A stretch of 42,783 nt of DNA from a virus (taxonomy: Duplodnaviria > Heunggongvirae > Uroviricota > Caudoviricetes), in IMG/VR virus record IMGVR_UViG_2630968543_000005. One strand, written 5' to 3'. Both the position numbers and the translations under genes were made by a program. Numbering within the stretch: position 1 is the stretch's first letter; the number at the start of each line of letters is the position of its first letter. The notes under the pieces were generated by a model, which saw only the letters and a program-made list of their open reading frames with translations, was not told the origin of the DNA and searched no databases. Of this stretch, positions 3,950 through 24,500 are shown one piece after another.

Positions 3950-4011
3950 GTTGGTTTTTCTCCACGGATTTACTGACAACCGAAGCCCTGACTGTTCCCG
4001 CAGTTGGGGCT

Positions 4012-4233
4012 TCACTGTTTTTGTAAGTCACTGTAGCTATAAAGCCACTGACCACTCATTTTTGATTTGATTGACTCTACTGAATCACGGCAAGGAATAA
4101 TTCCACCTGACATCATTCTGATCTCCGTAAATTCACCACTCCTTATCGACTCAATGCCATTAACGTTAACTAAAGATTTACCTCTACCAAGTGCATTCTC
4201 ATAGCCAATCTCATCAACCTCGATAAACTTCAT
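4012..4233 (-). CDS. Hypothetical small protein between arc and ant
   Basis: 73-aa ORF, ATG overlaps arc stop (ATGA), GAGGGGA RBS; no recognisable family. Confidence 0.35.
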
Positions 4234-18175: not shown

Positions 18176-19656
18176 GGTATGTTGTAGCTTGAGTAATCAA
18201 TCTCTTTAGGATCTTTGATGTCTCGCATCTGTATTGCAAAACGCCTCATCATGTAGCCATAGCGAACAGCAGAAAGGATGTCGTCATTTAGCTTGACGAT
18301 CTTCCCGTTCTCATCGCGGTGATACAGGCGAAACTCTTCAAAGAATGGCTCGCAGGTGTTAAATACCTTGAAACGACCGTCGAGCATCATGTCGCGTATC
18401 TCTGCTATCCCGGGTTCGACCGCATTACCTCCATCAGGCCATGTTGCATGATCTGGCAACATGTCGAACCCAGCGTCGGCGTATTGTTCCTTGAGCTGAG
18501 CGCCGCCTCCCTTTTCGTGCTGATGCCCGTCATGAGGCCAAGCCGTAGGGGTGTTTTTGCTCCATGCTTTAACAGCACTCCATGCCTCTGTCGCCTTCTT
18601 CTGTTTGGCCTTCCAGACGCGAGAAAGATAAATCACGTCCTCGTCTTTATCCCACCAAAGCTGGATATGTGCCTGTGGGTGATCCCATCCGAAGTCCATT
18701 GCATTGATGACGTAGAAGTGATCAGGACACTCGAACGGCTGACACTTAATCGTCTCTTCCGGTATCTGGAAGATTCGACCGCTACCCATCGTAGGAATAC
18801 CGCGAGCACGCGCCTCTCTCTCATGCTCAGGATAAGATGCGATGATTTGCTCTTTCTGCTCGTCGGTGTAGTGCTCAGCGTCATAGATGGTCATGTTGAC
18901 CACTTTCTGCGACTTGCTGGGATTCTTCAGGAACTTGGTAACAACGTCAGACATCCCCATCAGCGGGGTAAACGTCAGAATTGAGAATTGCCCGTATTTG
19001 TTGGTACGGGTAAGCCCTTCGCCATAAATGCTGTATGGTGGCTCTTCGTCAAACCACACGCCGTGGATTGTGTCACCCTGCCAGCGAGCGCGTCCTTGCG
19101 AGTATGGTTTGAAGTAGCAGATTGAAATGCCATCTTCAACGCCATCAGCCGTGTGATGCTTAACCAGAAGATGATCAACAAGGTTCGGAAAGAAAGGAGA
19201 CTTCTTCCAGCTAATGATGTCTTCTTTCGGTATGGAACCGTAGCCTGGCTCGTCATTCTCTTCAATACGACCGCACAGGATGCGTTGAGTCGTTTTGGTT
19301 ACAGTCTCGTTTGTCTCGCCGCCAATCCAGAAGACAACAGGCTCATAGAAACGCTTACCTTTCCACTCACCGCCATATTTACCATCAGCAGGATAGCCTT
19401 TTGTGCCCGGATAACGCCCGGTAAGGTGAAACGCGACTTCAGCAGCACCAGTAAATGACTTACCAAGCTGGTTACCAGCCATAAAACAGCGCTCTGGATA
19501 GTCATGCCCGGCGTCGATGAACTCACGCTGTTTGCTGTATGGCGTAAATTCATATAGCAGGTGTGTGTTCCGGTAGTTCTCTTCTTCTTCGAGTAGCTCG
19601 AGCAACTCGATTTGCTCTTCGTCGCTCAGGTTATCAAGAATCGCGTCCAGTTCCAC
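18160..19656 (-). CDS. terL: Terminase large subunit (P22 gp2-like)
   Basis: 498 aa; Walker A-like MAGNQLGKS; size equals P22 gp2. Confidence 0.9.
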
Positions 19657-20128
19657 GGTTGAATAGCTCCTTGATACGAGAGCGTCGCTTATCGCGATCT
19701 CCCTTATCAGGTGTCACGTCTTCAACTTGCGACTGCTCTTTGAGGCCCAAATCACGGGCGATGATGTTAGCGTTGAGAAGGTCAGCGGCTGCGCCAGAGA
19801 ATTTCTGGTCGTAGATGATGTCTTCCGCTCGTGATGTGACGTCAGAAAAACCTTCCATTGACCGGAAGGTTCCCCATGTTTGCCTGGTGATATCAAGGAA
19901 GGTACACAATCCTGAAATAGTCATGGCTCGCATCTTAGGAAGATTAGCCTTAATTATTTCTCCCTGATATGAAAATACCTTACCCTCCCATAGCGGGTTA
20001 TCATCAGCCCACTCGAAGTATTCACAACAAGCAGCCCACAGCGCCTCAGGCGATTCGAATTTAGGGTTTCGCCCATGACTACTGCGGGCCTCCCAGAATC
20101 GGTTGCCCTTTGGTGCTGCCATATTCAT
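19634..20128 (-). CDS. terS: Terminase small subunit (P22 gp3-like)
   Basis: 164 aa; ..[63 protein letters not shown].. matches P22 gp3. Confidence 0.85.
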
Positions 20129-20157
20129 CTCACTTAATCGTTATTTCAGGTTGAGCA

Positions 20158-20400
20158 TCATGCTCCGGTGGTGAACAGGTCTAACGCTTCCTTCGATTTA
20201 CGCACCGCTTCGATAGTGCGGGTCGTGATATCTGAATTAGCGCCACCTGACTGGAAGTGAATTTTGAATAGCTCAAGCTTCAGCTCGTCAGTGCCAATGA
20301 ACTGAAATGCTTCTTCTGCGGCTGCGTTCTGGTTCATGACCAGCTTGTAAATCTCTAACTGGAATTTCTGTTCTTCAGTCATGGGAATAATCTCTGCCAT
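20158..20400 (-). CDS. Hypothetical protein (moron upstream of terS)
   Basis: 80-aa ORF with GGAG RBS. Confidence 0.45.
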   Translation of the reverse strand: MAEIIPMTEEQKFQLEIYKLVMNQNAAAEEAFQFIGTDELKLELFKIHFQSGGANSDITTRTIEAVRKSKEALDLFTTGA

Positions 20401-20752
20401 TGTTGGCTCCGTTTATCCGTTAAAAGGGATATCAGTTAAGTTATCCCGTGTAGGGTATAAGTCATTGTCGAGACCACTCATTGAATGGTCTCTGCAATAA
20501 CCGATGTCTTTCCATCAGTCCGCCACCACAAAGAATCTTTTTTGCCATAAGGCAGGAGGTTCATCTTTCAGTGGCTGCCAGTGTTATTTCCCCACTTTCT
20601 GGCTTGGGTTGTTTCGCTGTATTGCCGCAACTGGTGGTGCACAGATTTAGTTAAATCTGTTCTCGCCTGAACTATCTTTTACATACCCGGATTGTGGGGA
20701 TGTAAATCACGGTTTCATTATCAAGCCCACCCGTAGATGGGCTTTGGAATGG

Positions 20753-21010
20753 CTACTTCGCTTTTGCTTCCGCTCGCTTACGCCGGCGCTCTTCTTTCCT
20801 CTCGGCTTTTGCCATGTCCATGAATGCCTGCATGATCGAGTTCCGCATCATGTAGCTAACAAAGTGATGATTGACACAGCCGTTGAGGCGCAGCTGCTCG
20901 CCAAACTCATCCACCGAGGCCAATGCTTCCATCATGCCCTTCTCGCCTTTCATGAACTCTGAGAAGTCGCGCCCCGCTCTGGAGGCGCATTCAATAACAC
21001 GATCACTCAT
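20753..21010 (-). CDS. Hypothetical protein
   Basis: 85-aa ORF, Lys/Arg/Glu-rich C-terminus, 4-nt overlap with upstream KilA-N gene. Confidence 0.4.
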   Translation of the reverse strand: MSDRVIECASRAGRDFSEFMKGEKGMMEALASVDEFGEQLRLNGCVNHHFVSYMMRNSIMQAFMDMAKAERKEERRRKRAEAKAK

Positions 21011-21504
21011 CCCGGAAGCCCGGGGATCGTAATCTGCAGCTGGTTAGCCAGGGAGTTAATCTCAGCGACCAACACTGGCTTCGTATAGCGCCATGCTGCC
21101 AGCCCTTGTCCGCAGAAGCTCGCCATGTCTTTCTTCTGGTCAAACTCATGACATTTCATGTTGAGCTGCGCACTTAAGCTGTTGCGATGCTGAAGTTCTC
21201 CGGTGAAGTAGTCATCGAGGACTTTATAGGCCGCGTACTTGAACCCGGGGTTTAACCAAGCCGCATAATCGTAAGCAACAAACTTCCCGCCATATGTTCC
21301 ACCGTGTACACCGCGCTCAGTAAAAACCACAGATTCGTGGTTTTTCTCCAGCTCGGCTAAGAACTCTTTGGTCTGCTTGTTTCGCAGGTAGTGGTAAGGC
21401 GATTCAGATTCACTTTTACCACTGGCTTTCCACATATCAGTGAGGCAGATCATGCCATCTTCACCGATACGAATTGGTTGATTGAAGAGGGTTAATGATT
21501 TCAT
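21007..21504 (-). CDS. KilA-N domain protein
   Basis: 165 aa; N-terminal ..IRIGEDGMICLTDMWKASGKS...KEFL.. typical of KilA-N DNA-binding domain. Confidence 0.5.
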   Translation of the reverse strand: MKSLTLFNQPIRIGEDGMICLTDMWKASGKSESESPYHYLRNKQTKEFLAELEKNHESVVFTERGVHGGTYGGKFVAYDYAAWLNPGFKYAAYKVLDDYFTGELQHRNSLSAQLNMKCHEFDQKKDMASFCGQGLAAWRYTKPVLVAEINSLANQLQITIPGLPG

Positions 21505-21620
21505 AGCGTGTACCTACTCTTTGAAATGAACCTTTGCCGCACAGGAAACCAGCCCACCGAGGCTCGCCAGCACTAACTGGTATCCTCAAAGGCCCATTCC
21601 AAAGGGGCAGGTTCGGTGTA

Positions 21621-21673
21621 AAAAACATGCGTTGCGGTACGCATTTATTGCAAAAAGCCCCGCATCGCGAGGC
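21621..21673 (-). terminator. Tandem hairpin/U-run terminator candidates downstream of Rz
   Basis: Minus strand GCCUCGC-GAU-GCGGGGC + UUUUU (21652-21673) and AUGCGU-ACCGCA-ACGCAU + GUUUUUU (21621-21645). Confidence 0.4.
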
Positions 21674-21705
21674 TCATTAAATGGACTTTGTGATTTGCAA
21701 AAAAA

Positions 21706-22155
21706 TTATTTCAGGCATTGCGTCCTGATGTATTCCTGCAGGTAGTTAACCTGCGCGGTTATCCTGTCGATTCCACTTCGGAGACGGTAATAATTGAGTT
21801 CAGCATCTGCTGTAAGTCTTGGGCTTTCTCCATCGCCCATGCTGCTGGCTCCGGTCGTTGACTTTGCACAGGTGGCGGCGACTTGCAGGCGCTTACGACC
21901 AGCAGAAACATCAGCACGGAGACTTTCGATAGTCGCGTTAGCATCAGCAAGCTCCTTTGTGTATCTGGCGTCAAGTTCTGCTACATCACGTTGACGCTTC
22001 TGCATGTCAGCAATTGTGGATGCGGCCTTATCGCGCTGCTCTTTGTAGGCGATTGCGTTATCACGGTAATGATTAACAGCCCATGACAGGCAGACGATGA
22101 TGCAGATAACCAGAGCGGAGATAATCGCAGTTACTCTGCTCATTGCTGCCCCCAC
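21706..22155 (-). CDS. i-spanin Rz
   Basis: 149 aa, N-terminal TM helix then coiled-coil periplasmic domain; immediately after endolysin. Confidence 0.75.
21759..21944 (-). CDS. o-spanin Rz1 (embedded in Rz in another frame)
   Basis: ATG 21944 with AAAGGAG RBS; signal sequence ending lipobox LVVSAC, Pro-rich mature part ([14 protein letters not shown]). Confidence 0.6.
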
Positions 22156-22643
22156 AAACAGACTTCACGCTCAATCTCACGGCGAGTCATCAGCCCTTTC
22201 CATTGCTTACCGCCAGCGTATGTCCAGCGACGTAGCTGGTCACATGCGCCCTTGATATCGCCCTGGTTGATTTTGCGAAGAAGCGTCGATGTTCTGAAAT
22301 TGCCTGCGCCCACGTTATAGACGAACGAATAAAGAGCGCCGCGCGTTGTTTCCGGTATATCGACTTTGATGTACGGGTTAATTTGTCTGGCGACCGTGGC
22401 AAGGTCTTTATTCAGGAGGGCTTTGCATTCTGCTTCGGTATACGTTTTACCGAGCATGATGTCTTTTCCGGTGTGTCCGTGGCATACAGTCCATACACCA
22501 ACAATATCTTTGTATGGTATGTAGCTGACACCTTCCAGGCCATCGTTACCACTTGGTCCAGTGATTAACACAGATGCTATAGCAATAGCCCCGCCACTTA
22601 TCGCCGCTATTACGCTATTTCGTAGTGCCGGTGACATTGCCAT
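22140..22643 (-). CDS. SAR endolysin (phage 21 R-type lysozyme)
   Basis: 167 aa; Gly/Ala-rich SAR domain [19 protein letters not shown] then catalytic ..[24 protein letters not shown].. (Glu-Asp-Thr triad). Confidence 0.85.
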
Positions 22644-22818
22644 TCAATCTGTCCTCGCGCTCTTTGCGCTTGTAGTACCAGTTGATGCCAAATGTGCCGA
22701 CAGTACAAAGAATACCAATGATGACAGCCCAGTCATTCAGGGAGAGAATGCCACCCATCGCAGTCAGTCCTCCGAAGCTGTAACTGAACCATTCTCTGAT
22801 TTTGTCCATACGGTACAT
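22615..22818 (-). CDS. Class II holin / pinholin with dual-start motif
   Basis: 67 aa, two predicted TM segments; N-terminus MYRMDK gives Met1/Met4 dual start like S21 holin-antiholin. Confidence 0.7.
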
Positions 22819-23274: not shown

Positions 23275-23787
23275 TTAAACGGTATGATATTTCATTCTGG
23301 CTGCCTCAAAAGCCGCAGCGGCAAGTTCGGCAGTGTCATGGTATCCAAGGTTAATACACTTTCCAGACGCATTAATTCTTGCTCTCCATTTCCCGTACTT
23401 AGCATCCCAAGACACGCCACGGTATCCAGATTTATTATTCTTCTGAATTTTCCTGTTTTGCATATTTTCGGAATGAGTGACAAGACGAAGATTTGATATC
23501 CGGTTATCTGTTCTTACCCTGTTGATGTGATCAATAAAACCATCGGGCATGGTGCCATAAACAATCAACCATGCCAGTCTGTGAGCAGGGCATGCTTTAC
23601 CATTAATCATAATCATTAAATACCCATCAGAATTTATTGATGAGCATTTCTTGAAAGCAAAACGAGAGTTCCATGTCAAAGTGGTCCTCTCTCTCCCCTG
23701 CCTCCATCTCCAGTGAAAGTCGCCTGATGATGGATTGTAATCAACAACAGAAAGCACCATTTCTGGCGTTAATTTTATTTCTTTCAT
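23275..23787 (-). CDS. HNH homing endonuclease with AP2 DNA-binding domain
   Basis: 170 aa; HRLAWLIVYG..DHINRVRTDNRISNLRLVTHSENMQN (HNH) and GYRGVSWDAKYGKWRARI..LGYHDTAELAAAAFEAA (AP2); paralog of 27543-28154. Confidence 0.7.
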   Translation of the reverse strand: MKEIKLTPEMVLSVVDYNPSSGDFHWRWRQGRERTTLTWNSRFAFKKCSSINSDGYLMIMINGKACPAHRLAWLIVYGTMPDGFIDHINRVRTDNRISNLRLVTHSENMQNRKIQKNNKSGYRGVSWDAKYGKWRARINASGKCINLGYHDTAELAAAAFEAARMKYHTV

Positions 23788-23974: not shown

Positions 23975-24004
23975 ATTATGACTAAATGGCTAATTGCATG
24001 TCAA
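23975..24004 (-). promoter_or_regulatory. PR'-like late promoter candidate (qut region expected here)
   Basis: Minus strand TTGACA (23999-24004), 18-nt spacer, CATAAT (23975-23980) at the 3' end of Q. Confidence 0.45.
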
Positions 24005-24500
24005 GACTTTTAACAGCAACATGCTTAACTTTCTCAACACGTTTACGCATTTTGAAAGCATTTTGCATTGGTTGGTACAAAACAAATAACGACGCTTTCA
24101 GGATGTCGTCAATTTCGTTTCTACAGGTTGCCATTGAAGGTTTTCTCCATCCCTCGCCACCACGTCCACACATCTTGCGTGGCTTTGCAGTCGCGTGATA
24201 GTAGGATGCAATTGCTCGCTTAGATGAACCATGAGCGTAGTAGCTGAGGAGGATGCCAAAGGCTTTCTTGTCAATGTACATGACGGAATCGACGACCTGA
24301 GAAATCAACATTCCATCATCATCATTACACATTGGCCTTGTCATAACTCTTCCCGGCTCTACGCTCTCCATGAACTTCGCTATTACGCTGCTCATGCGCT
24401 TTTCCAGACGACCTGAATAAACCCATGCGCCCCACAGTTCAAGCCAGCCATTCAGCCACTCGTGCTGCTCTTTGGTGAGGTTTAGTTCTCTTATGCCCAT
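23982..24500 (-). CDS. Q: Late antiterminator Q
   Basis: 172 aa, position between nin region and PR'/tR'; Cys/His-containing region. Confidence 0.65.

What the first reader, a model, noticed from the sequence alone, without database searches (positions are those of the whole stretch)
20158..21504. Moron cluster between Rz and terS with a structured 350-bp leader
Three small genes (KilA-N domain protein, 85-aa and 80-aa hypotheticals) lie between the lysis genes and terS, preceded by two terminator-like hairpins at 21621-21673. The 350-bp untranslated gap 20401-20752 holds several perfect palindromes (GAGACCA-N9-TGGTCTC at 20470-20492; GGGATA-N10-TATCCC at 20426-20447; AAGCCCA-N8-TGGGCTT at 20723-20744). 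This looks like an independently regulated insertion in the late operon.
Basis: seen in the sequence. Interest (0 to 1): 0.4.

Follow-up and report, generated by a model that had tools for sequence, protein, structure and literature searches.

The report
Conserved RNA hairpins in moron slot
The stretch between the lysis and DNA-packaging genes of this P22/HK620-like E. coli prophage is that phage family's usual slot for optional genes, and its 352-base gene-free spacer is assembled from conserved RNA hairpins that mark the ends of gene cassettes rather than being the private control region of an inserted operon.

Summary
All three ORFs, both terminator hairpins and all three palindromes are at the stated coordinates, and the gap folds far better than shuffles (z = -5.9).

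The gene cluster is already known. It is about 97% identical to HK620 hkbK-hkbL-hkbM, which has the same gap.

I found no promoter above background and no unusual base composition. The 80-aa gene is P22 orf80 (DUF2560), which travels with the packaging genes. So "independently regulated insertion" is not supported.

The gap is not a simple leader. It is a mosaic:
- Two copies (20716-20751 and 20463-20499) of a two-tier hairpin with a conserved base (CATTACA...GATAATG) and a strongly covarying upper stem. There are 42 alleles, 10 of 15 pairs show double changes, and there are 91 G·U cells on the sense strand against 1 on the antisense strand. That pattern points to an RNA element of the late transcript.
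- A conserved 134-nt segment, C.
- A strongly conserved leader, E, upstream of orf80.

The spacer is the empty state of a known insertion hot spot, which holds pid in P22 and gene 66 in Sf6. Parts of the gap occur in 2556 of 5426 complete E. coli genomes.

The function is inferred, not shown: intercistronic RNA processing or stability elements. The hairpin class matches no Rfam family.

The parts
21650..21675 (-). T1, an intrinsic-terminator-like hairpin just after Rz (GAGCCUCGCGAUGCGGGGC followed by U5)
   Evidence: RNA fold. A homologous terminator directly precedes the H hairpin in simple prophage junctions (L217).
21620..21644 (-). T2, a second intrinsic-terminator-like hairpin (AUGCGU...ACGCAU followed by U6)
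   Evidence: Terminator scan; fold.
21007..21504 (-). KilA-N + ORF11CD3 domain protein, 165 aa (equivalent to HK620 hkbK). Accessory cassette gene.
   Evidence: Pfam; PHROG; HK620 annotation.
20753..21010 (-). 85-aa protein of unknown function (equivalent to HK620 hkbL, phrog_875). Second gene of the same cassette.
   Evidence: No Pfam hit and no PDB relative.
20716..20751 (-). H3, a cassette-end two-tier RNA hairpin that starts at the hkbL stop codon. It has a lower stem, a CA/GA internal loop, a 9-bp upper stem and a UACG loop.
   Evidence: Covariance model hit, 56.7 bits, E 9e-13; family covariation; fold.
20637..20709 (-). Segment B, an optional indel block with two inverted repeats (20678-20706 and 20641-20660). 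It is absent from HK97, Dewey and ST160.
20503..20636 (-). Segment C, a conserved non-coding block. All 155 copies are at least 93% identical. Possible reduced relative of the Proteo-phage-1 late-leader RNA.
   Evidence: pi 0.020 against 0.068 at orf80 third codon positions; no codon-phase bias; weak collinear similarity.
20499..20502 (-). Recurrent cargo insertion point, empty in this window. Other phages hold Sf6 gene 66 (Phage_gp49_66) or 62-aa or 72-aa ORF cassettes here.
20463..20499 (-). H1, the second copy of the cassette-end hairpin (AUUG CA GAGACCAUUC aau GAGUGGUCUC GA CAAU). The lower stem extends to 8 bp; dG -24 kcal/mol.
   Evidence: Covariance model hit, 57.7 bits, E 5e-13.
20401..20462 (-). 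Segment E, the conserved leader of orf80. It holds hairpin 2 (20426-20447, GGGAUA-N10-UAUCCC), U4 (20422-20425), GGAUAAA and the Shine-Dalgarno GGAG (20407-20410). The P22 pid moron replaces 20415-20441.
   Evidence: (pi 0.012).
20158..20400 (-). orf80 / hkbM (DUF2560), the conserved small gene that precedes terS in P22-like phages
   Evidence: Pfam 1.1e-43.
19634..20128 (-). terS (P22 gp3 type). Included as context: the start of the packaging module.
   Evidence: Pfam GP3_package 2.4e-30.

Best explanation
This is the ordinary accessory-gene slot at the lysis/packaging junction of a P22-like (HK620-type) E. coli prophage. It is read as part of the Q-antiterminated late operon.

The simplest form of the junction, seen in lambda-like prophages, is Rz - terminator T1 - hairpin H - leader E - packaging genes. 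In this window two cassettes have been added to that scaffold, each ending in its own copy of H:
1. T2 + KilA-N + hkbL + H3.
2. An ORF-less cassette, B + C + H1.
E and orf80-terS follow. The 352-bp 'leader' is therefore H3 + B + C + an empty cargo site + H1 + E.

H is a two-tier RNA stem-loop of the late mRNA: a lower stem of 4-8 bp (4 bp in this window's H3, 8 bp in H1), a conserved CA/GA internal loop, and a 9-10 bp covarying upper stem.

Inferred mechanism. H and hairpin 2 act in the read-through late transcript as intercistronic processing or stability elements. The roughly 20-bp helix with an internal loop has the build of an RNase III-type site. Cleavage there would separate the lysis and cargo mRNA from the packaging mRNA, or the hairpin could simply protect RNA ends. 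The upstream canonical terminators keep non-antiterminated transcription out of the terminase genes. The invariant bases of H and E also provide the homology patches through which cargo such as pid, gene 66, KilA-N or rha is swapped.

Shown: the anatomy, the conservation, the covariation, the strand asymmetry, and the absence of a promoter signal. Inferred: the processing or stability role.
For: Identity of the locus:
- 96.8% identical to HK620 hkbK-hkbM, which has the same 353-bp gap.

Mosaic breakpoints and cargo:
- Breakpoints recur at the same bases in 95 loci.
- Different cargo sits at one exact site, 20502. P22 pid replaces 20415-20441. The pid site is a published moron hot spot (PMC3573128, PMC8835761).

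The H hairpin family:
- 42 alleles share CATTACA...GATAATG. 97.9% of cells are paired against 87.2% in shuffles (0 of 500 reach the observed value) and 35-48% in slid controls. 10 of 15 pairs have double changes.
- There are 91 G·U cells on the sense strand against 1 on the antisense strand, so 97.9% are paired on sense and 83.7% on antisense.
- Every full-length context in a set chosen only by the Orf80 protein folds this way, with dG from -15 to -27 kcal/mol.
- The window holds exactly two copies, both on the late-operon strand, and Sf6 has none outside this junction.
- H always starts at or near a stop codon, or directly after a terminator.

Constraint on the non-coding segments:
- Nucleotide diversity is 0.020 for C and 0.012 for E, against 0.068 at orf80 third codon positions, across 57 haplotypes.

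No independent expression signal:
- No promoter above background.
- BTP1 rha and orf80 are expressed like lytic genes, and none of the STnc60xx ncRNA entries I saw fall between rha and pid.
Against: - No transcript ends or cleavage sites were examined, so the processing or stability role is inference only.
- H lacks a U tract, and it often lies right after a canonical terminator. A plain 3'-protecting hairpin would be redundant there.
- The invariant base and internal loop of H, and the almost invariant loop of hairpin 2, suggest sequence-specific recognition by an unknown factor rather than generic structure.
- Hairpin 2 is deleted in ST160, L020 and a Citrobacter locus without loss of orf80, so E is not essential.
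- Within C the few variants break predicted pairs rather than compensate for them.
- The low diversity of C and E could partly reflect frequent recombination at this junction rather than selection.
- Weak promoters such as P22 Ppid (-10 AATCCT) would escape my scans.
Confidence: 0.55

Rival explanations
1. One reading: KilA-N, the 85-aa gene and the 80-aa gene form an autonomous moron operon with its own promoter. The 350-bp structured region is a regulatory 5' leader controlling the 80-aa gene independently of late transcription.
For: - Two terminators lie upstream of the cluster.
- The gap is strongly structured.
- The KilA-N/hkbL block is present in some related phages and absent from others.
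- The P22 moron pid at this locus has a 174-nt 5' UTR (PMC8835761).
Against: - No promoter-like site above background on the coding strand.
- GC content matches the flanks.
- orf80 stays with terS while the upstream genes vary.
- The 'leader' is itself mosaic, and parts of it occur without orf80 in lambda-like prophages.
- BTP1 rha and orf80 are expressed at lytic-gene level in lysogens, unlike pid.
Confidence: 0.1
2. Segment C, possibly together with H1, is a functional cis-acting RNA related to the Proteo-phage-1 late-leader RNA (RF03044). An example role would be a put-like element that keeps RNA polymerase termination-resistant before the long structural operon.
For: - Rfam's second-ranked weak hit in the gap is RF03044 at 20573-20636 (17.6 bits).
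- A profile of the extended leader from 21 true members gives two collinear hits in C: 20605-20573 and 20525-20461.
- Only 0.5% of 3000 shuffles give any hit, and 4 of 3000 reach the real score.
- The GCCGG/CCGGC pairing predicted in true members becomes GCCAG/CUGGC here, a double change that keeps the pair.
- The least variable parts of C coincide with the two similar blocks.
- C evolves about 3.4 times more slowly than orf80 third codon positions.
Against: - The score is far below the gathering threshold (17.6 against 42 bits), and each nhmmer hit is non-significant genome-wide (E 2.2 and 3.9).
- True members sit between the Q-position gene and the holin, not after the lysis genes.
- Their first hairpin and central helices are missing here.
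- There is no covariation within C.
- C is absent from many lambdoid prophages that keep H-E.
Confidence: 0.15
3. The hairpins act at the DNA level. They would be recombination or boundary signals that let cassettes be captured or exchanged (formally like integron attC sites, or as targets of the homing nucleases seen nearby), and RNA structure would be incidental.
For: - Each cassette ends in its own H copy, with conserved base sequences and a variable stem.
- L105 carries three H copies in a row.
- Mosaic breakpoints cluster at the edges of H.
- HNH and GIY-YIG nuclease genes occur in this slot in Dewey and epsilon34.
Against: - G·U pairs are 91 to 1 in favour of the transcribed sense strand. 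That asymmetry is the signature of selection on RNA, although a single-stranded sense DNA strand would show the same pairing.
- There are no attC-type core sites.
- No dedicated recombinase was identified next to the hairpins (not searched for systematically).
- Different cargo shares the same left junction, which ordinary homologous recombination in the conserved flanks explains just as well.
Confidence: 0.1
4. The gap is non-functional debris: deletion scars and relics of lost genes that look conserved only because the block spread recently.
For: - All copies of C are at least 93% identical, so they are young.
- HK97 carries a frameshifted hkbL and a 28-codon stump of orf80 at this junction.
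- ST64T 'orf118' is a deletion fusion.
- B is a simple presence/absence block.
Against: - C and E are 3.4 and 5.6 times less diverse than the adjacent synonymous-rich codon positions.
- H shows many independent compensatory changes.
- No reading frame in C shows third-position bias.
Confidence: 0.1

Closest known systems
Coliphage HK620 hkbK-hkbL-hkbM region (NC_002730, 18124-19478)
   Same: 96.8% nucleotide identity over window 20156-21509. Same gene order and the same 353-bp unannotated gap.
   Different: HK620 has an extra small gene, hkbN, between hkbM and gene 3, and a different terS. The window has P22 gp3-type terS directly after orf80.
P22 pid moron locus between orf25 and orf80 (Cenens 2013, PMC3573128; Wolput 2022, PMC8835761)
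   Same: Same genomic site. P22 shares window 20442-20627 and 20156-20414, and the pid insert replaces 20415-20441. The site is described as a place where related phages carry no insert or a different insert.
   Different: There is no pid here; the site is empty. pid is transcribed on the opposite strand from its own weak promoter and has its own terminator. Nothing comparable was detected in the window.
Intercistronic RNA stem-loops of polycistronic phage or operon mRNAs (T7-type RNase III sites; REP-like 3' stabilisers)
   Same: - Sits between cistrons of a long late transcript.
- Forms a stable helix of about 20 bp interrupted by an internal loop.
- Sequence is conserved around the internal loop while the distal stem is free to covary.
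- Selection is specific to the sense strand.
   Different: No cleavage or stabilisation data exist. The sequence is unrelated to REP (my recollection of the consensus). H often follows a canonical terminator.
Integron attC sites
   Same: Each cassette ends in a hairpin with a conserved base, a variable stem and unpaired internal bases.
   Different: No RYYYAAC/GTTRRRY cores. G·U asymmetry favours the transcribed strand. This is an analogy of form only.
Rfam RF03044, Proteo-phage-1 RNA
   Same: Collinear sequence blocks (AAGCCRG..AGUG, AACACYGGCAGCC, UCUUUG..GGCGGAC..GGAAAGAC) and a retained loop-tail pairing.
   Different: 17.6 bits against a gathering score of 42. Lacks hairpin 1 and the central helices. 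Lies after the lysis genes instead of between the Q-position gene and the holin.

Membership tests
HK620-type (Lederbergvirus) accessory region hkbK-hkbL-hkbM | Same genes in the same order, with high nucleotide identity to the reference phage | tested here: met
   96.8% identity over 1354 bp with matching annotation.
Moron (autonomous inserted gene, in the sense of Juhala/Hendrix) | Present at a site where close relatives have nothing or something else | tested here: met
   The KilA-N/hkbL block is replaced by rha, a GIY-YIG nuclease or an Acr-annotated gene, or is absent. This does not hold for orf80, which is conserved next to terS.
Moron (autonomous inserted gene, in the sense of Juhala/Hendrix) | Own promoter | tested here: inconclusive
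   No consensus match on the coding strand. The best PWM scores, 7.9 and 7.3, are about the median for random windows. Weak promoters like Ppid would be missed.
Moron (autonomous inserted gene, in the sense of Juhala/Hendrix) | Own factor-independent terminator at the 3' end | tested here: not met
   hkbL is followed by H3, which has no U tract. The canonical terminators T1 and T2 lie upstream of the cluster.
Moron (autonomous inserted gene, in the sense of Juhala/Hendrix) | Base composition different from the neighbours | tested here: not met
   GC is 0.48-0.54 in the cluster and 0.47-0.53 in the flanks.
Intrinsic (Rho-independent) terminator | G+C-rich stem-loop followed immediately by a U run | tested here: met
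   Met for T1 and T2 only. H1 and H3 have no U run. Hairpin 2 is weak (6-bp stem, dG -8.3, U4), and its U run is replaced in a few loci.
RNase III-type intercistronic processing site | Coaxial helix of about two turns with an internal loop | tested here: met
   8 bp + 2x2 loop + 9-10 bp, dG -20 to -27 kcal/mol, for H1 and for the common alleles. This window's H3 has only a 4-bp lower stem, dG -18.4.
RNase III-type intercistronic processing site | Cleavage by RNase III in vivo or in vitro | not testable with these tools
   No transcript-end data are available for this element.
Rfam RF03044 Proteo-phage-1 | Score at or above the curated gathering threshold (42 bits) | tested here: not met
   17.6 bits, E 0.92. 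True members score 71-84 bits.
Rfam RF03044 Proteo-phage-1 | Location in the late leader between the Q-position gene and the holin (as seen in the true members examined) | tested here: not met
   True members lie between NinG/an unknown 225-aa gene and the holin. Segment C lies downstream of Rz.
Integron attC | R''/R' core sites RYYYAAC ... GTTRRRY at the base of the hairpin | tested here: not met
   The base of the hairpin reads CATTACA ... GATAATG in all 42 alleles.
Any curated RNA family (Rfam 15) | Match at the gathering score inside 20100-21800 | tested here: not met
   The only gathering-level hit in the window is sar RNA at 3950-4016. Nothing significant was found in the gap.

The most novel reading that the evidence does not exclude
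The spacer holds two undescribed functional RNAs of lambdoid late operons.
1. H is a cassette-terminal, sequence-specifically recognised stem-loop class. It would be cleaved or bound to uncouple the fate of the lysis and cargo mRNA from that of the packaging mRNA, and it would also define the units in which accessory genes are gained and lost.
2. C is a miniaturised relative of the Proteo-phage-1 late-leader RNA. It would act in cis on the transcription complex, for example through put-like processive antitermination, just before the terminase genes.
Probability: 0.15. Interest if true: 0.65.

Novelty: new member of a known kind. Interest (0 to 1): 0.4.

Why it matters
The gene cluster is ordinary and already on record in HK620. 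The unannotated spacer is the interesting part. It contains a clearly selected, strand-specific RNA hairpin class, and parts of the spacer occur at the lysis/packaging junction in about half of all complete E. coli genomes. The hairpin sits at the exact place where lambdoid phages repeatedly gain and lose accessory genes such as pid, Sf6 gene 66, KilA-N/Rha regulators, nucleases and annotated anti-CRISPRs.

If the hairpins are processing or recognition signals, they give a concrete, testable handle on two questions:
- How expression of lysis, cargo and packaging genes is uncoupled within one 25-kb late transcript.
- Why moron insertions recur at the same nucleotide.

For annotation, the analysis also shows that small ORFs called in this gap lack coding signal: Dewey CDS0073/74 and P22 orf25 overlap segments that show none, and ST64T orf118 is a deletion fusion of a small upstream ORF to orf80.

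Tried and rejected
- tRNA or tmRNA: none in the window.
- Known RNA families: no gathering-level hit in the region. The low-score hits (GlsR20, mir-723, RT-17, MEG3) are noise.
- BTP1 antisense RNA STnc6030: it lies antisense to the tailspike gene, not here.
- Pas, AgvB and AsxR prophage sRNAs: Pas genes lie next to the holin/lysozyme operon, and no Rfam AgvB or AsxR hit was found here.
- Gene remnant of ST64T orf118: rejected. orf118 is itself a fusion created by a 37-bp deletion.
- Small proteins in the gap. This covers the two 28-codon sense ORFs at 20548 and 20564 and the 48-codon antisense ORF at 20504-20650. Segregating sites by codon position are 3/5/1, 5/6/9 and 9/15/13, with no third-position excess. 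Their C-termini change with every insertion allele, and 7 alleles truncate the antisense ORF.
- Promoters on either strand of the gap and upstream of KilA-N: nothing above background.
- PDB relatives of the 80-aa and 85-aa proteins: none.
- My first divergence comparison was biased by how the loci were chosen. I redid it on loci selected only by the Orf80 protein.
- Covariation inside segment C: no informative variation.
- Literature searches for the hairpin, DUF2560, hkbM/orf80 and late-transcript processing found nothing relevant.
Full report
OBSERVATION

All genes in the interval lie on the minus strand, the strand of the late operon. Reading in the direction of transcription, the order is:
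- Q, 23982-24500
- holin, 22615-22818
- lysozyme, 22140-22643
- Rz, 21706-22155, with Rz1 embedded
- two intrinsic-terminator-like hairpins: T1 about 21655-21675 followed by U5, and T2 21627-21644 followed by U6
- a KilA-N + ORF11CD3 protein, 21007-21504
- an 85-aa ORF, 20753-21010
- a 352-bp ORF-free gap, 20401-20752
- an 80-aa ORF, 20158-20400
- terS 19634-20128, then terL and portal

As RNA, the gap folds with z = -5.9 on the minus strand and -4.1 on the plus strand relative to dinucleotide shuffles.

WHAT THE GENES ARE

The interval 20156-21509 is 96.8% identical to coliphage HK620, where the genes are hkbK (KilA-N), hkbL and hkbM (DUF2560). HK620 has the same 353-bp unannotated gap between hkbL and hkbM.

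The 80-aa protein is DUF2560, the same family as P22 Orf80. It stays next to terS in P22, CUS-3, Sf6, epsilon34 and HK620 even though their terS types differ. It therefore belongs with the packaging module and is not an insertion.

The KilA-N/hkbL block is optional:
- P22 and CUS-3 carry Rha-type genes in its place.
- epsilon34 carries a GIY-YIG nuclease.
- Louie carries a gene annotated as an anti-CRISPR.
- Dewey has an additional HNH gene.
- Simple lambda-like prophages have nothing there.

hkbL is phrog_875, of unknown function. Neither small protein has a relative in the PDB.

IS THE CLUSTER INDEPENDENTLY REGULATED?

I found no support for this.
- The consensus scan finds no sigma-70-type site on the coding strand between 19500 and 22300.
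- A position-weight scan gives best scores of 7.9 (Rz to KilA-N) and 7.3 (the gap). The medians for random windows of equal length from this sequence are 6.3 and 7.0, and the 90th percentiles are 8.8 and 9.4.
- GC content is like that of the flanks.
- In published RNA-seq of the BTP1 lysogen, which shares this junction, rha and orf80 run at TPM about 2-36, like Rz. The true moron pid reaches 80-1110.
- The STnc60xx ncRNAs listed for BTP1 lie elsewhere (PMC7067206).

Weak promoters such as P22 Ppid would escape such scans, so this point is not closed (PMC8835761).

ANATOMY OF THE GAP

Comparison with 8 annotated phages and 80 IMG/VR loci chosen by the Orf80 protein shows a mosaic whose breakpoints recur at the same bases. 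On the sense strand the gap reads as follows.

1. H3, 20751-20716. A hairpin that begins at the hkbL stop codon.
2. B, 20709-20637. A presence/absence block, missing in HK97, Dewey and ST160.
3. C, 20636-20503. At least 93% identical in all 155 copies collected.
4. An insertion point at 20502. Other phages carry Sf6 gene 66 (Pfam Phage_gp49_66; 389-413 bp) or 62-aa or 72-aa ORF cassettes with their own terminators, all sharing the same left junction.
5. H1, 20499-20463.
6. E, 20462-20401. It contains hairpin 2 (20447-20426), U4, GGAUAAA and the orf80 Shine-Dalgarno sequence.

The P22 pid moron, which is transcribed in the opposite direction, replaces 20441-20415. Cenens et al. had already described that site as a place where relatives carry no insert or a different insert (PMC3573128). 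The window therefore shows the empty state of a known hot spot.

THE HAIRPIN FAMILY

H1 and H3 are two members of one family. In 215 loci I found 42 distinct alleles, all of the form (C/T)ATT(A/G)CA - stem - loop - stem - GA(T/C)AATG.

On their alignment (A1) the two-tier structure consists of a lower stem, a 2x2 CA/GA internal loop and a 10-bp upper stem. The counts are as follows:
- 97.9% of cells are paired, against 87.2% in column shuffles (0 of 500 reach the observed value) and 35-48% when the partner is slid by 1-3 columns.
- 10 of 15 pairs carry changes on both sides.

At least seven different upper-stem sequences exist: AAGCCCA, GAGRCCA, AAAGCCA, GCAGGCA, GGAGCUC, GCAGCCC and AAGCGUC.

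The allele list had been filtered for at least 6 stem pairs. To check for bias, I examined every context in the set chosen only by Orf80. All full-length ones fold into the same architecture, with dG from -15 to -27 kcal/mol.

G·U pairs are extremely asymmetric: 91 cells on the sense strand against 1 on the antisense strand. That gives 97.9% paired on sense and 83.7% on antisense. This is the signature of selection on the RNA of the late transcript, or formally on that single DNA strand.

With the common GGCU flank the lower stem reaches 8 bp, giving a helix of about 20 bp with a central internal loop. In this window only H1 does this; H3 has a 4-bp lower stem.

A covariance model built from the family finds exactly two copies in the 42.8-kb window, both on the minus strand (57.7 and 56.7 bits). 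It finds two copies in the whole Sf6 genome, both at this junction, and up to three in a row in locus L105, each after a stop codon or terminator. It finds none in the unrelated phage contigs tested.

WIDER DISTRIBUTION AND CONSTRAINT

Parts of the gap occur in 206 phage records and in 2556 of 5426 complete E. coli genomes, with up to five places per genome.

Most of these share only 20479-20412, which is the 3' half of H plus E. In lambda-like prophages the junction reads Rz - 50-aa gene - canonical terminator - H - E, followed by the region upstream of an unrelated terminase. T1-H-E therefore looks like the basic scaffold into which cassettes are inserted.

In 57 haplotypes chosen without reference to the non-coding DNA, nucleotide diversity is:
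- C: 0.020
- E: 0.012
- orf80 third codon positions: 0.068
- orf80 first and second codon positions: 0.0055

These values come from one search, which replaces the biased. Both non-coding blocks thus evolve 3-6 times more slowly than mostly synonymous sites next door. The caveat is that recombination may give the segments different histories.

No reading frame in C shows a third-position excess, and the small ORFs change with each insertion allele. Hairpin 2 is dispensable in ST160, L020 and a Citrobacter locus.

MECHANISM

Shown:
- The elements are transcribed-strand RNA structures.
- They lie between cistrons of the late operon.
- They are conserved beyond neutral expectation.
- They sit at cassette ends.

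Inferred:
- In Q-modified read-through transcripts, H (and hairpin 2) act as processing or stability signals. The helix geometry and the conserved internal-loop region resemble RNase III-type intercistronic sites.
- The canonical terminators insulate the terminase genes from non-antiterminated transcription.
- The invariant H and E sequences serve as homology patches for cargo exchange.

I put about 0.55 on this overall picture. Within it, I split roughly evenly between true processing and simple end protection or recognition by a factor.

A SIDE LEAD

Rfam's second-ranked sub-threshold hit in the gap is Proteo-phage-1 (RF03044; 17.6 bits against a gathering score of 42).

True members were fetched from IMG/VR and score 71-84 bits. 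They lie between NinG plus a gene in the Q position and a lambda-type holin, so they are late-operon leaders. Their conserved structure extends about 175 nt beyond the Rfam model to a terminator.

A profile of that extended region hits C twice, collinearly, at 20605-20573 and 20525-20461 (E 2.2 and 3.9 genome-wide). Only 0.5% of 3000 shuffles of the region give any hit. The GCCGG/CCGGC pairing of true members appears here as GCCAG/CUGGC.

This is suggestive of distant homology, perhaps even odds, but it is not established. The different genomic position and the missing helices mean C is not a member of the family.

VERDICT

However, the cluster is a known HK620-type arrangement with no sign of autonomous regulation, and the 80-aa gene is not part of an insertion.

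The new result is the covarying, strand-specific hairpin class and the conserved C and E blocks of the spacer. None of the phage records I inspected annotates them, and Rfam 15 has no family for them. Their function remains to be tested.

Noticed in passing
window 3950-4016 (+): sar antisense RNA (RF00262), 87.7 bits. It indicates a P22-type immI (ant/arc/mnt) region in this prophage.
   Followed up: no
window 23275-23787 (-): A 170-aa HNH_3 + AP2 protein sits between Q and the holin, with locally low GC (0.40-0.43). It looks like a free-standing homing-endonuclease gene inside the late leader region.
   Followed up: partly
window 21505-21712 (-): Downstream of T1 and T2, the 100-nt leader of the KilA-N gene (about 21512-21612) folds into one long imperfect hairpin. 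The whole interval has z = -3.9.
   Followed up: no
L007 (HK97) 942-1140 and 1496-1579: HK97 carries an unannotated, frameshifted hkbL homolog. It also retains only the first 28 codons of orf80, fused just upstream of the gp74 HNH gene.
   Followed up: partly
L005 (ST160) 1348-1704; L279 (phage L) 1048-1404: The annotated 'orf118' of ST64T-type phages is a small upstream ORF joined in frame to an orf80 homolog. The join results from loss of the 37 bp that hold hairpin 2.
   Followed up: partly
L219-L277 (IMG/VR contigs), e.g. L245 717-971 and L247 2731-2990: True Proteo-phage-1 RNAs lie between NinG plus a gene in the Q position and a lambda-type holin, so they are late-operon leaders. The conserved structure extends about 175 nt past the Rfam model to an intrinsic terminator. 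One subgroup carries tRNA-like inserts inside a long-range stem.
   Followed up: partly
L217 2945-2975 compared with L247/L245 leader ends: The terminator after Rz/gene 65 in E. coli prophages (GCCTCGCATTCGCGGGGC followed by T6) closely resembles the terminator that closes the Proteo-phage-1 leader (GCCTCGCATTAAGCGGGGCC followed by T4).
   Followed up: no
L105 1236-1856 (-): Three H-type hairpins lie in a row on one strand, each after a stop codon or terminator. The next gene's Shine-Dalgarno sequence appears sequestered by an ACCUCC...GGAGGU hairpin.
   Followed up: no
window 20401-20752: The gap is 100% identical to the chromosome of E. coli strain SW070919 (wastewater) and 98.3% identical to phage APC_JM3.2.
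   Followed up: no
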